DNA of 64,000 bases from Candidatus Iainarchaeum sp. (GTDB lineage: Archaea > Iainarchaeota > Iainarchaeia > Iainarchaeales > VGJJ01), in NCBI GenBank assembly GCA_043803765.1, contig JAZDJQ010000018.1, positions 32,001 to 96,000 on the forward strand, in the 5' to 3' direction. The notes under the pieces are model-generated. The model did not search any database and was not told the origin of the DNA. It saw only the letters and a list, made by a program, of their open reading frames with translations. The translations under genes were made by a program, and so were the position numbers. This document shows positions 41,336 to 61,083 of the stretch, one piece after another. The stretch's first letter is position 1. Each line of letters begins with the position of its first letter.

Positions 41336-41428
41336 GGACTCGTGGCTTATTCCCGCCTTTTTCATACGGTGATACCGAGGGAGTATGCAGTAGGTTTTAA
41401 CAAACCCACGATAAATGAATACATGCAG
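41336..41428 (+). repeat. tRNA-5'-linked ~92-bp structured unit (copy upstream of tRNA-Ile)
   Basis: Starts GGACTCGTGGCTTA (tRNA-Ile starts GGACCCGTAGCTCA); stems TATTCCC/GGGAGTA, GCC/GGT, GTAGGTTT-TAAC-AAACCCAC. Confidence 0.75.
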
Positions 41429-41502
41429 GGACCCGTAGCTCAGCCTGGTAGAGCAGCGTTCTTATACAGCGTCCGTCGGAGGTTCAAATCCTCCCGGGTC
41501 CA
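41429..41502 (+). tRNA. tRNA-Ile(TAT)
   Basis: Acceptor GGACCCG/CGGGTCC-A; D stem GCTC/GAGC; anticodon loop CTTATAC; T arm GGAGG-TTCAAAT-CCTCC. Confidence 0.88.
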
Positions 41503-41570
41503 CTTTCAATATTGCCCCGCTGAAAAAAAATTCCCTAATTTTAAGAATCCGCCACTCAATGACCTTCGGG

Positions 41571-59247: not shown

Positions 59248-59309
59248 ATTGGTTTTCGCATCCATCTCCTGCTCCTTTAAATGTATTTCAACACCAAGTT
59301 CCTGTATCT

Positions 59310-59393
59310 GCAGGAGTAGCGAAGCGGTCAAACGTGTTGGCCTTAGAAGCCAATGGCTTAGTGCCTTCGGAGGTTCGAATCCTCCCTCCTGCA
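59310..59393 (+). tRNA. tRNA-Leu(TAG)
   Basis: GCAGGAG/CTCCTGC-A; TTGGC-CTTAGAA-GCCAA; long variable arm; TTTAAA promoter ~30 nt upstream. Confidence 0.95.
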
Positions 59394-59425
59394 TTAAATT
59401 CGTATCAAAAAAAATGGAAAAAAAA

Positions 59426-59701
59426 GGCTCCGTGGTATAGCTGGATAATTTCAACGGTCGCCACGACGAGCTATTGGGTAGGGTTTTCAATCCTATTGTA
59501 GACCAATCTGCTGCATGCCCGCGTGGTGCAGTCGGCCGATTTCGCACGGCCACCACGAGGGACTACATGGTTGGATTTTCAATCCAACAGTAGGTCAATC
59601 ATTGTACACTGCCTGTGTGGTGTAGTCCGCCGTTTTCGTCCGGCGGCACCGACGGACTAACGCAGGATTTAACAATCCTGCAATAGGCCAAATAAAATAC
59701 G
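59426..59701 (+). repeat. Three tandem tRNA-5'-linked ~92-bp structured units
   Basis: Units at 59426, 59517, 59611 (tRNA at 59702); each begins with a copy of GCCCGTGTGGTGTAGTC; covarying hairpins. Confidence 0.85.
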
Positions 59702-59775
59702 GCCCGTGTGGTGTAGTCTGGATAGCATAAGGGCTTCCGGAGCCCTTGACCTGGGTTCAAATCCCAGCACGGGTG
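59702..59775 (+). tRNA. tRNA-Arg(CCG)
   Basis: GCCCGTG/CACGGGT-G; AGGGC-TTCCGGA-GCCCT; CTGGG-TTCAAAT-CCCAG. Confidence 0.93.
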
Positions 59776-59776
59776 T

Positions 59777-59856
59777 CTAGGGGTTGTTTTACAATCCCTT
59801 TACCGTTTTCCCCGGGCTTTTCTGAAAAGGCCGGTTCCGAATTCCAGCACGGGTGT
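59777..59856 (+). repeat. Hairpin element plus duplicated tRNA-Arg 3' end
   Basis: TTTTCCCCGGGCTTTTCTGAAAAGGCCGGTTC then CGAATTCCAGCACGGGTGT (13-nt exact match CCAGCACGGGTGT). Confidence 0.8.
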
Positions 59857-59866
59857 TATCTTTCTT

Positions 59867-60163
59867 TCAGAGGAAAGAACGAATACTAGAAACTGGATTG
59901 AGTGATACAATCCAATTTCCAATTAGAAAAAAGAGTTTTCCTCCACTCTTGAGAAGGAAAATTATTCCGATGAGGAATTGAATAAAACATATTATACTTA
60001 GCGCAAGCAACACTCCCGTTATGCGATGACGGGAAAGAAAAGGCCATTTTTCTTCAAGTGAAGCACGAACAAGACCAATGTATACGCTAAGACTGACACG
60101 AAAACAATAGATTTTTTCTTCCACATGAGCGGAAGCTGAATGAAAGAATGCTAGGAACGACAT
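59867..60163 (-). CDS. Small membrane hypothetical protein
   Basis: 98-aa ORF with one TM segment. Confidence 0.45.
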   Translation of the reverse strand: MSFLAFFHSASAHVEEKIYCFRVSLSVYIGLVRASLEEKWPFLSRHRITGVLLALSIICFIQFLIGIIFLLKSGGKLFFLIGNWIVSLNPVSSIRSFL

Positions 60164-60890: not shown

Positions 60891-60974
60891 GCATGCGTAC
60901 CCAAGCGGTCTAAGGGGCCAGACTCAGACTCTGGTGGCTTAGTGCCTTCGGAGGTTCGAATCCTCCCGCGTGCA
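60891..60974 (+). tRNA. tRNA-Leu(CAG)
   Basis: GCATGCG/CGCGTGC-A; CCAGA-CTCAGAC-TCTGG; long variable arm; TTTAAA promoter. Confidence 0.95.
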
Positions 60975-60975
60975 T

Positions 60976-61083
60976 GTCCAGTTCCGATTGGACCAACCGG
61001 CGTAGCGTGATGGCATGCCATCACTCATCCATTTTTCCCCGGGCTTTTCACAAAAGGCCGGTTCTGAATCCTCCCGCGTGCAT
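60976..61083 (+). repeat. Hairpin element plus duplicated tRNA-Leu 3' end
   Basis: TTTTTCCCCGGGCTTTTCACAAAAGGCCGGTTC then T+GAATCCTCCCGCGTGCAT (18-nt exact match). Confidence 0.8.

What the first reader, a model, noticed from the sequence alone, without database searches (positions are those of the whole stretch)
59426..59775. Tandem ~92-bp structured units that each copy the 5' end of the adjacent tRNA: candidate tRNA-targeting miniature element or leader RNA
Seen: three units at 91/94/91-bp spacing begin GGCTCCGTGGTATAGCT, GCCCGCGTGGTGCAGTC and GCCTGTGTGGTGTAGTC, versus tRNA-Arg GCCCGTGTGGTGTAGTC. Similarity rises toward the tRNA, like a polarised array. Each unit then has a stem (TAGCT/AGCTA, AGTC/GACT, TAGTCC/GGACTA), an inner stem with a TTTC-containing loop, and a 3' bulge (GCCACG, CACCACG, CACC) complementary to the upstream CGTGGTG, so a pseudoknot is possible. 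A GA(C/G)G linker follows, then a second hairpin with compensatory changes (TAGGGTT/AATCCTA, GTTGGATT/AATCCAAC, GCAGGATT/AATCCTGC). Inference: either repeated insertion at the tRNA D-loop with target duplication, where the TTT(T/A)(C/A)A hairpin ~30 nt upstream of the next 5' end could supply a TATA box, or a selected structured RNA such as a ribozyme or processing signal. I do not recognise it as a described family.
Basis: partly seen in the sequence, partly recalled or inferred. Interest (0 to 1): 0.9.

Follow-up and report, generated by a model that had tools for sequence, protein, structure and literature searches.

The report
Hairpin repeat element duplicating tRNA ends
The three units are copies of a small two-hairpin repeat element, common in this group of tiny archaea, that has inserted beside the tRNA gene, left a spare copy of the tRNA's first 17 bases each time, and seems to bring a promoter of its own.

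Summary
Three units (window 59426-59516, 59517-59610, 59611-59701) precede tRNA-Arg(CCG), and a fourth (41336-41428) precedes tRNA-Ile(TAT). Each begins with a copy of its own tRNA's 5' end.

They belong to a family I call X, with a ~64-nt core: hairpin B (loop TTTCGN), a CGA-GGGACTAC motif, hairpin hp2, then GTAGGCC. A covariance model finds X in 16 of 16 congeneric genomes, at 1-30 copies each. Records with several pattern hits are titled Candidatus Iainarchaeum (DPANN). No Rfam family matches.

Orthologous sites are filled in some genomes and empty in others. Unit 3's core is closer to copies on other contigs than to its neighbours, while its 5' segment follows the local tRNA. So the "tRNA copy" is a duplication of the gene end made at insertion. 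Other copies duplicate a protein gene's last ~42 nt, a 5S rRNA end, or nothing.

The hp2 loop lies where ordinary tRNA genes here carry their TATA box (about -34). A second family (Y) duplicates tRNA 3' ends: 13 of 46 tRNAs in this genome, including this tRNA-Arg.

The proposed pseudoknot has no covariation support. The mobilising enzyme is unknown.

Verdict: a new variant of small non-autonomous repeat element, with unusual gene-end duplication and apparent promoter donation.

The parts
59309..59394 (+). tRNA-Leu(TAG). In relatives without X it lies only 14-22 nt upstream of tRNA-Arg(CCG).
59394..59425 (+). Native spacer after tRNA-Leu. TTAAAT at 59394-59399 lies about 32 nt upstream of the first orphan copy and could be a TATA box (inference).
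59426..59516 (+). X unit 1, the oldest-looking. Orphan 5' copy 59426-59442 (10/17 to the tRNA), then core and tail.
   Evidence: 73.2 bits
59517..59610 (+). X unit 2. Orphan 5' copy 59517-59533 (15/17).
   Evidence: 85 bits
59611..59701 (+). X unit 3. Orphan 5' copy 59611-59627 (16/17). Its core is closest to copies on contigs C9 and C7.
   Evidence: 92.7 bits
59628..59645 (+). Unit 3 hairpin B: CGCCG / CGGCG with loop TTTTCGTC.
   Evidence: family-wide 98% paired, 3 of 4 pairs with double changes
59647..59659 (+). Unit 3 conserved CACCGA motif and GGACTA. The latter is complementary both to the orphan copy's TAGTCC and to the element's own TAGGCC.
59662..59681 (+). Unit 3 hairpin hp2: GCAGGATT TAAC AATCCTGC. 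Its TTTAAC apex starts 34 nt upstream of tRNA +1, at the TATA-box position.
59684..59701 (+). Unit 3 TAGGCC end motif followed by an A-rich tail running up to tRNA +1.
59702..59775 (+). Intact tRNA-Arg(CCG).
59779..59799 (+). hp2-like hairpin directly after the tRNA: AGGGGTTGT TTT ACAATCCCT.
   Evidence: Similar hairpins follow tRNA-Arg in G005 and on C7.
59806..59855 (+). Y element: T-run, hairpin CCGGGCTTTT/AAAAGGCCGG, TTCCGAAT, then an orphan copy of the tRNA's 3' end (59833-59855).
   Evidence: 59.2 bits
41336..41428 (+). X unit upstream of tRNA-Ile(TAT). It is orthologous to X copies in G001, G002, G006 and G010.
41429..41503 (+). tRNA-Ile(TAT).
61032..61082 (+). Second Y element in the window, downstream of tRNA-Leu(CAG) (60891-60974), with an exact copy of the tRNA's last 16 nt.
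   Evidence: 70.8 bits

Best explanation
Each unit is one insertion of a short, non-coding, non-autonomous repeat element (X). Its ~64-nt core runs: hairpin B, CGA-GGGACTAC, hairpin hp2, GTAGGCC, A-rich tail. The family is dispersed through all sampled genomes of this Iainarchaeum-like DPANN genus.

At this locus X entered the 5' part of the tRNA-Arg(CCG) gene three times. Each event left an orphan copy of the tRNA's first ~17 nt on the hairpin-B side. The intact gene was kept or re-created on the hp2 side.

The hp2 apex (TTTTCAA or TTTAAC) lies at the standard TATA position. It probably now drives the next unit and finally the tRNA, which in X-free relatives sits 14-22 nt behind tRNA-Leu.

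Shown here: family membership, conserved structure, filled and empty orthologous sites, locally derived 5' copies, and the TATA-position coincidence.

Inferred: promoter use, and the insertion chemistry. My preferred chemistry (about 35%) is single-strand, hairpin-recognising transposition of the IS200/IS605 type, in which GGACTAC acts as a guide that pairs with the flank (TAGNN|) and with the element's end (GTAGGCC|). Alternatives are staggered-cut target duplication, or template switching at the conserved tRNA loops.

The Y element downstream is the mirror case at the T-loop and 3' end.
For: 1. Family. The model R1 finds 6 strong copies in this genome. It matches 16 of 16 congeneric genomes at 1-30 copies each, 1 of 1 sister genus, and 4 of 43 other same-order genomes.

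2. Structure. Hairpin B is 98% paired, hp2 93% and the GGACTAC/GTAGGCC helix 84%. 0 of 500 shuffles reach these values.

3. Insertion polymorphism.
- The Leu-to-Arg spacer is 14, 16, 17 and 22 nt in four congeners, against 95, 166 and 307 nt in three with X material.
- A gene-end site is filled in G009 and G011 and empty in 8 others.
- At tRNA-Ile, 5 of 16 genomes carry X plus an orphan copy, and 9 of 16 have no X and a TATAAA box. In G001, G002 and G010 the native TATAAA box now precedes the orphan copy.

4. Discordance. Unit 3's core matches C9 at 52/62 and C7 at 49/62, but U2 at 41/63 and U1 at 34/63. The 5' segments follow the local tRNA.

5. Flank duplication. 16 of 62 distinct copies score 24 or more, against 1.9% of 1223 shuffled-partner controls. 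The duplicated targets include non-tRNA sequence: ~42 nt of an ORF 3' end, a 5S rRNA end and a reversed tRNA-Val 3' end.

6. Promoter. TATA-like words start at -37 to -30 (mode -34) upstream of most of the 46 tRNAs. The hp2 apex starts at -34, -34 and -32 in three X-preceded tRNAs.

7. Targeting. The left flank ends in TA[AG]N0-3 in 17 of 62 copies, against 6.8% of random positions. The flank/GGACTA pairing shows 21 double-change cells against 5.7 in shuffles.
Against: - No partner enzyme was found. Y1_Tnp is in only 3 of 17 genus genomes. The one in this genome belongs to an IS200-like element with different end hairpins. Cas1, the TnpB domain and RVT_1 gave 0 hits here. Large integrases number 0-6 per genome and are missing from four X-bearing genomes.
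- IS200/IS605-type insertion makes no duplication, so the orphan copies need an extra assumption, such as use of the next TAGNN in the tRNA as the right end.
- 46 of 62 copies show no flank duplication. Duplication lengths range from 12 to ~42 nt, which does not fit a fixed staggered cut.
- The orphan copy and GGACTA co-vary at the old, vertically inherited tRNA-Ile copy: TATTCCC/GGGAGTA here against GTAGCT/AGCTAC in relatives. That hints at selection on an RNA or DNA structure beyond mobility.
- There are no expression data, so promoter use is untested.
- The alignment used for the pair counts was fitted to hairpin B, hp2 and the flank helix, which favours those three.
Confidence: 0.6

Rival explanations
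1. The unit is a selected cis-acting RNA, such as a structured 5' leader, processing or termination signal, decoy or small RNA. In this reading the tRNA-like 5' end and its pairing with GGACTA are functional, and the family spreads because it is useful.
For: - Strong covariation in two hairpins, and invariant unpaired motifs (TTTCG loop, CGA).
- Fold z-scores of -2.2 to -4.0 for the three units.
- At the orthologous tRNA-Ile copy, the flank/guide helix is kept by changes on both sides.
- X has persisted at tRNA-Ile across species whose genes are only ~70% identical.
- Many copies sit 0-7 nt after stop codons in the sense orientation, as 3'-UTR elements would.
Against: - 9 of 16 congeners lack X at tRNA-Ile, and 4 of 7 lack it at tRNA-Arg(CCG), using ordinary arrangements instead.
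- Copy number varies from 1 to 30 among congeners.
- Copies occur in both orientations relative to neighbouring genes.
- There is no Rfam match.
- ssDNA-recognising transposons show the same kind of covariation.
- The pseudoknot is unsupported.
Confidence: 0.15
2. The duplicated gene ends are attachment sites rather than target duplications. The mobile unit is core plus tail plus a copy of the gene end. It integrates by recombination with the homologous gene segment, as tRNA-integrating elements do, and so brings its own promoter and gene end.
For: - Similarity between orphan and functional copies usually begins at or within 3 nt of tRNA +1, or at the stop codon. The sequences beyond are unrelated.
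- At the G011 gene-end site, the functional copy next to X differs by four synonymous changes within ~12 nt, while the orphan keeps the ancestral state seen in 8 empty-site genomes.
- Y's orphan is a hybrid. It has a Y-specific T-loop half (TTCYG) followed by the tRNA-specific 3' strand, like an attR.
- Tyrosine recombinases are present.
Against: - A ~90-nt element would need a different gene fragment for each target: Ile, three Arg, Lys, Val, 5S, ORFs.
- Integrases are absent from 4 X-bearing genomes.
- In G010 and G009 the duplication runs into upstream sequence, 27-30 nt.
- Most copies have no duplication at all.
Confidence: 0.15
3. The array arose locally by tandem duplication or unequal crossing-over of the tRNA promoter and 5' region. 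The units are decaying pseudo-copies with no mobility.
For: - Head-to-tail arrangement with a 91-94 nt period.
- A similarity gradient toward the tRNA.
- Concerted evolution of flanking copies within genomes.
- Arrays of different length in relatives.
Against: - The core has no counterpart inside the tRNA.
- Unit 3's core is closer to copies on other contigs than to its neighbours.
- The same core occurs at non-tRNA sites in 17 genomes.
Confidence: 0.05

Closest known systems
IS200/IS605-derived miniature elements (PATEs) and the IS608 guide/cleavage-site mechanism
   Same: - Asymmetric element with two different hairpins near its ends and no terminal inverted repeats.
- Fixed orientation relative to a short flank motif (TAGNN|).
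- An internal motif (GGACTAC, just 5' of hp2) complementary to the left flank and to the right end.
- IS608 cleavage sites are recognised by short internal sequences rather than directly by the protein. I saw this in the start of the abstract of PMC3201880, in the listing.
   Different: - No cognate TnpA in 14 of 17 genomes.
- The resident IS200-like element has unrelated end hairpins.
- The guide-like motif lies after hairpin B, not between the flank and the hairpin.
- Gene-end duplications of 12 to ~42 nt are not a feature of this family. That last point is recalled, not tested.
Bacterial REP/REPIN elements with RAYT transposases
   Same: - Short, abundant extragenic stem-loops, mostly just downstream of genes.
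- Found as singletons, dimers and tandem clusters that include flanking DNA.
- A GTAG tetranucleotide next to the stem-loop (passages of PMC3733652; own data).
   Different: - Here GTAG lies 3' of hp2 and pairs with an upstream CTAC, whereas REPs carry GTAG as an unpaired 5' tag.
- No RAYT-like single-copy partner flanked by X.
- That paper lists GTAG repeats from bacterial phyla only.
- X has a second hairpin and duplicates gene ends.
tRNA-integrating mobile elements (integrase att sites overlapping tRNA genes)
   Same: An intact tRNA with a partial direct copy of its end beyond the inserted DNA. Y's junction lies in the T-loop, a classic crossover place (that last point is recalled).
   Different: - The inserted DNA is only about 35-75 nt and encodes nothing.
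- 5'-end as well as 3'-end copies occur.
- Many different tRNAs are affected: 13 of 46 with 3' copies in one 1-Mb genome.
- There is no consistent integrase.
Repetitive or double hairpin elements of fungal and sponge mitochondria
   Same: Small mobile-looking hairpin or double-hairpin repeats that fill intergenic regions and sometimes enter genes. Their mechanism is unknown (passages of PMC2800124).
   Different: They occur in organellar, AT-rich contexts. The passages I read mention no gene-end duplication or promoter donation.

Membership tests
IS200/IS605 miniature derivative (PATE) | Hairpins near both ends, no terminal inverted repeats, strand-specific insertion 3' of a short target motif. 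| tested here: met
   Two covarying hairpins. The left flank ends in TA[AG]N0-3 in 17 of 62 copies against 6.8% of random positions, and position -2 is C in 38 of 62.
IS200/IS605 miniature derivative (PATE) | Internal guide pairing with the left cleavage site (flank) and the right cleavage site (end). | tested here: inconclusive
   GGACTAC with GTAGGCC: 83.8% paired against 76.2% in shuffles. With the flank: 64.8% against 56.6%, but the alignment was fitted to that helix. Cleavage was not tested.
IS200/IS605 miniature derivative (PATE) | A Y1 HUH transposase with matching end hairpins in the same genomes. | tested here: not met
   PF01797 is in 3 of 17 genus genomes. Its flanking hairpins (loop TTTA) differ from X's.
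IS200/IS605 miniature derivative (PATE) | Insertion without target duplication. | tested here: inconclusive
   46 of 62 copies show none. 16 of 62 show 12 to ~42 nt duplications.
REP/REPIN-RAYT | Unpaired GTAG tag at the 5' end of the palindrome. | tested here: not met
   GTAG lies 3' of hp2 and pairs with CTAC. REP geometry is taken from passages of PMC3733652.
REP/REPIN-RAYT | A single-copy RAYT gene flanked by its REPs. | tested here: not met
   R1 finds no X copy on contig C4, where the only Y1 gene lies. Y1 is absent from 14 of 17 genomes.
Classical MITE | Terminal inverted repeats, a short fixed target duplication, and a parent IS. | tested here: not met
   The ends share only GGCC(G). 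Duplications are absent or 12 to ~42 nt. No parent element was found.
Integrase att duplication at tRNA genes | An integrase-encoding element lies between the intact tRNA and the partial copy. | tested here: not met
   The intervening DNA is 74-77 nt (X) or about 57 nt (Y here) and is non-coding.
Split or permuted tRNA gene pieces | The pieces together encode a complete tRNA, with complementary leader and trailer forming a splice motif. | tested here: not met
   The 5' copy (positions 1-17) and the 3' copy (about 58-73) lack the anticodon arm. An intact tRNA lies between them.
Known RNA families (Rfam 15), including ribozymes and riboswitches | A match to a curated covariance model. | tested here: not met
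   Only tRNA passes the gathering score. In E-value mode nothing but tRNA scores above 22 bits, and no hit covers a unit.
CRISPR-like array | Identical repeats separated by unique spacers, with cas genes. | tested here: not met
   The 75-nt 'spacers' are homologous to one another. Cas1 gave 0 hits.

The most novel reading that the evidence does not exclude
X and Y would be a previously unrecognised class of transposase-less (or unknown-enzyme) elements of DPANN archaea. They enter the D-loop and T-loop regions of tRNA genes, and other gene ends, by guide pairing on single-stranded DNA or by template switching at the conserved tRNA loops. Each regenerates the gene end it interrupts and brings its own promoter (X) or terminator hairpin (Y). 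The process steadily creates free-standing 5' and 3' tRNA gene fragments next to promoters. That is the kind of raw material needed for the split tRNA genes known from other DPANN lineages.
Probability: 0.2. Interest if true: 0.8.

Novelty: new variant of a known kind. Interest (0 to 1): 0.6.

Why it matters
A third of this 1-Mb genome's tRNA genes are flanked by partial copies of themselves beside small hairpin elements. 13 of 46 have a 3' copy and 5 of 46 a 5' copy (6 counting the more diverged tRNA-Ile orphan), against 1 and 0 in the reversed controls.

- This shows how compact DPANN genomes tolerate mobile DNA at essential single-copy genes: the gene end is duplicated and the element supplies the promoter.
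- It explains lineage-specific rewiring of tRNA transcription. tRNA-Arg changes from being co-transcribed with tRNA-Leu to having its own promoter modules.
- It warns annotators that tRNA-like fragments in these genomes are insertion by-products.
- If the chemistry turns out to be guide-directed or enzyme-independent, it would be a new mode of mobility in archaea and a concrete route to fragmented tRNA genes.

My seven answered searches found no description of it. Supplementary files were not consulted.

Tried and rejected
- **Tandem Repeats Finder.** It found no array because the units are too divergent. This is not evidence against the repeat.
- **RNAalifold on six copies.** It gave a weak consensus (-5.46 kcal/mol) because MAFFT mis-registered 3-nt and 4-nt loops. 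I replaced it with model-based alignment.
- **Pseudoknot (5' copy with the CACCGA bulge).** Rejected.
- **Acceptor-stem-like pairing of the 5' copy with AATAGGCC, and reading the units as intron-containing, split or minimal tRNAs.** Considered by eye and rejected. There is no 3' acceptor strand and no anticodon arm.
- **k-turn and bulge-helix-bulge readings.** Considered by eye only and rejected. The required GA pairs and bulge geometry are absent. No tool was run for this.
- **RAYT/REP partner.** Rejected.
- **Casposase, reverse transcriptase and TnpB partners.** 0 hits in a 93%-complete genome. Absence from the unassembled 7% cannot be excluded.
- **Large integrases.** Not correlated with X.
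- **Pattern scan of genome contigs.** It returned many single hits in bacteria, at about the rate I estimated (not computed by a tool) for 16 specified bases. Only records with several hits, titled Candidatus Iainarchaeum or uncultured archaeon, are informative.
- **Pattern scan of metagenome contigs.** Not analysed further.
- **Pattern scan of viral contigs.** 0 hits.
- **The look-up of sequencing runs.** No run was listed and no RNA holder was listed.
- **The search of earlier findings.** Closed.
- **Supplementary files of papers.** Not opened.
- **Short target duplications at the young G002 copies.** Inspected by eye only, with no clear result.
- **Correction.** An early working note put the number of tRNAs with 3' copies at about 16. 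The count is 13 of 46.
Full report
**What is there**

The region between tRNA-Leu(TAG) (59309-59394) and tRNA-Arg(CCG) (59702-75) holds three head-to-tail units of 91, 94 and 91 nt. Each starts with a 17-nt copy of the tRNA-Arg 5' end. Identity to the tRNA rises 10/17, 15/17, 16/17 toward the gene. A 14-base degenerate version of that start occurs 3 times in the window, against 0.00 expected from 100 shuffles.

A fourth unit (41336-41428) precedes tRNA-Ile(TAT) and mimics that tRNA's start instead. An nhmmer profile of the four units found two more copies in the laid genome. Each lies directly upstream of another tRNA-Arg (TCG on C9, TCT on C7) and each copies its own tRNA's start.

**Anatomy**

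After model-based alignment of 40 copies the core reads as follows:
- Hairpin B: 5-6 bp with loop TTTCGN.
- A conserved NNNCGA, then GGGACTAC.
- A 1-4 nt linker.
- Hairpin hp2: 8 bp with a loop of 2-4 nt in most copies.
- (A/G)TAGGCC, then a mostly A-rich tail.

Pair counts support this structure. Hairpin B is 98% paired with 3 of 4 pairs showing changes on both sides. hp2 is 93% paired with 8 of 8 pairs doing so. 0 of 500 shuffles reach the observed values, and slid controls give 28-49% paired.

GGACTAC pairs with the element's own GTAGGCC. This helix was not in the model and is 83.8% paired against 76.2% in shuffles (0 of 500 as high). GGACTAC can alternatively pair with the end of the left flank, here the tRNA copy's TAGTC. 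That helix is 64.8% paired against 56.6% in shuffles, but it was part of the model, so the alignment leans toward it.

No Rfam family matches a unit.

**Distribution**

The model matches 16 of 16 other genomes of the genus, at 1 to 30 copies each. It also matches the one sister-genus genome and 4 of 43 further genomes of the order. In total 22 of 61 genomes match, counting the window's own.

An exact-pattern scan of named genome records gave multiple hits only in records titled Candidatus Iainarchaeum archaeon or uncultured archaeon. Single hits in bacteria are at chance level. The viral collection gave 0 hits.

**Evidence for insertion**

1. *tRNA-Leu to tRNA-Arg spacer.* It is 14, 16, 17 and 22 nt in G003, G010, G013 and G005. 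It is 95 nt (partial X) in G011, 166 nt (one X with orphan copy) in G004, and 307 nt here.

2. *tRNA-Ile(TAT).* The gene was found in 16 genomes. Five carry X plus an orphan copy (two of them as arrays), one has X at another position, one has a remnant, and nine have no X and a TATAAA box about 36 nt upstream. In G001, G002 and G010 that same native box now sits upstream of the orphan copy.

3. *A protein gene's 3' end.* G009 and its sister G011 carry X flanked by two copies of the gene's last ~42 nt. Eight other congeners, including this genome, have a single gene end.

4. *Core against 5' segment.* Unit 3's core is 52/62 and 49/62 identical to the copies on C9 and C7. It is only 41/63 and 34/63 identical to its neighbours U2 and U1. 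The 5' segments do the opposite. The cores move or recombine between loci, and the 5' segments are made locally.

5. *Flank duplication.* Among 62 distinct full-length copies, 16 have flanking direct repeats scoring 24 or more, against 1.9% of 1223 shuffled-partner comparisons. Most involve tRNA 5' ends of 12-20 nt. Others involve a reversed tRNA-Val 3' end, a 5S rRNA 3' end and the ORF end.

The remaining 46 copies show no duplication. Many of these lie 0-7 nt after a same-strand stop codon, between convergent stop codons, or abut a tRNA end.

**Promoter**

Upstream of most of this genome's 46 tRNA genes, a TTTAAA, TTTTAA or TATAA word starts at -37 to -30, with a mode of -34. The A/T-rich apex of hp2 starts at -34 (tRNA-Ile), -34 (tRNA-Arg CCG) and -32 (tRNA-Arg TCG). 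Within the array it lies 33 and 35 nt before the next unit's first base. I infer that each unit carries the promoter for whatever follows it. This has not been shown.

**The 3' side**

Directly after tRNA-Arg comes an hp2-like hairpin (59779-59799), then a Y element (59806-59855). Y consists of a T-run, a GC-clamped A/T hairpin, TTCCGAAT, and a copy of the tRNA's T-stem 3' strand, acceptor 3' strand and discriminator.

Genome-wide, 13 of 46 tRNAs have such a copy of their last 16 nt (4 or fewer mismatches; 5 exact) within 450 nt downstream. 5 of 46 have a 5' copy upstream. The reversed controls gave 1 and 0.

A Y model matches 14 of 16 congeners and several other families of the order. Of the 27 top-scoring Y hits outside this genome that were fetched as loci (of more than 90 listed), 14 have a same-strand tRNA ending less than 400 nt upstream. 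Of those 14, 6 match the tRNA's last 13 nt at 13/13 and 5 at 12/13. Some Y hairpins carry no tRNA copy.

Y's T-loop half (TTCYG) is element-specific across different tRNAs, and only the bases after it are local. This tRNA is therefore nested between a 5' and a 3' partial copy of itself.

**Mechanism**

The left flank is non-random. It ends in TA[AG]N0-3 in 17 of 62 copies against 6.8% of random positions, and C is at -2 in 38 of 62. The right end is CAGTAGGCC. So the flank resembles the element's end, and both are complementary to GGACTAC, which lies just 5' of hp2.

That is the logic of IS200/IS605 single-strand transposons. Their cleavage sites are read by short internal sequences next to hairpins near the ends (start of the abstract of PMC3201880, listing). 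tRNA D-arms (GTAGTC, GTAGCT) and TAG/TAA stop codons would be natural targets.

Several results count against this reading:
- Y1 transposase genes occur in only 3 of 17 genomes.
- The one here belongs to an IS200-like element beside tRNA-Arg(CCT), with unrelated end hairpins.
- That chemistry makes no duplication.

Cas1, the TnpB domain and reverse transcriptase gave no hit. Integrases are sporadic.

Three ways to obtain the duplications remain open. The first is use of the next TAGNN inside the tRNA as an alternative right end, so that the mobile unit is core plus tail plus tRNA 1-17, which is exactly the 91-94 nt period. The second is recombination with an element-borne gene end. This is favoured by the G011 site, where the functional copy differs by four synonymous changes and the orphan keeps the ancestral state. 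The third is template switching at the conserved D- and T-loops.

Flanking copies also evolve in concert within genomes. That explains why old orphans still resemble their tRNA.

**Comparison with known elements**

Against REPs, the location and clustering agree. The GTAG geometry, the partner gene and the taxonomic range do not. Mitochondrial hairpin elements are a loose analogue.

My seven answered literature searches returned nothing describing tRNA-end-duplicating hairpin elements in archaea. I read only listings, abstract starts and the passages named above, and no supplements.

**Verdict**

This is a real, structured, genus-wide repeat element, and its insertion beside or into gene ends explains the "tRNA-copying" units. 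It is a new variant of small non-autonomous mobile DNA with two unusual properties: gene-end duplication and apparent promoter donation. Its enzyme and chemistry are unresolved.

Noticed in passing
G000 C7:19236-19310 (-) and C18:15856-15927 (+), outside the window: A different short module lies upstream of two tRNA-Ser genes (TGA, GCT). It has a copy of the tRNA's first 15-16 nt, a GC-clamped hairpin (CCTTTTGCC..GGCAAAAG) and a GCTCTGAC segment complementary to the copied D-arm. There is no hp2-type hairpin before the tRNA.
   Followed up: partly
G000 C1:50053-50263 (locus L004), outside the window: Three Y-type hairpin units lie in tandem downstream of tRNA-Lys(TTT). Only the most distal one carries an exact copy of the tRNA's last 16 nt, the opposite polarity to the X array.
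   Followed up: no
G000 C4:1-930 (locus L085): An IS200-like element lies at a contig end, about 100 nt downstream of tRNA-Arg(CCT). It has a Y1 transposase of about 139 aa, no tnpB, and flanking hairpins with TTTA loops. The same element occurs in G007 and a related one in G004.
   Followed up: partly
G011, locus L209, at the gene-end X copy: The X copy carries a nested insertion of about 54 nt inside the loop of hairpin B. The insertion is itself made of two small hairpins. These genomes hold several families of small hairpin repeats that insert into one another.
   Followed up: no
G002 loci L067, L069, L071-L077: G002 has a subfamily of near-identical X cores (hp2 = GAGGGAGGG TTAC ACCCTCCC), in loci fetched from three contigs and often in tandem. 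This suggests a recent burst in a genome where no Y1 transposase was found.
   Followed up: partly
window 59889-59919: Another hp2-like inverted repeat (GAAACTGGATTG ... CAATCCAATTTC, 92% complementary) lies about 35 nt beyond the Y element.
   Followed up: no
G015 C1:366970-367748: An X copy lies about 170 nt from a 218-aa open frame that matches only the N-terminal 170 residues of the large integrase family. This may be a partitioned or truncated integrase.
   Followed up: no
G000 whole genome: ARAGORN with intron search reported 28 tRNAs, while the Rfam tRNA model found 46. ARAGORN missed tRNA-Arg(TCT) on C7, which carries both X and Y.
   Followed up: partly
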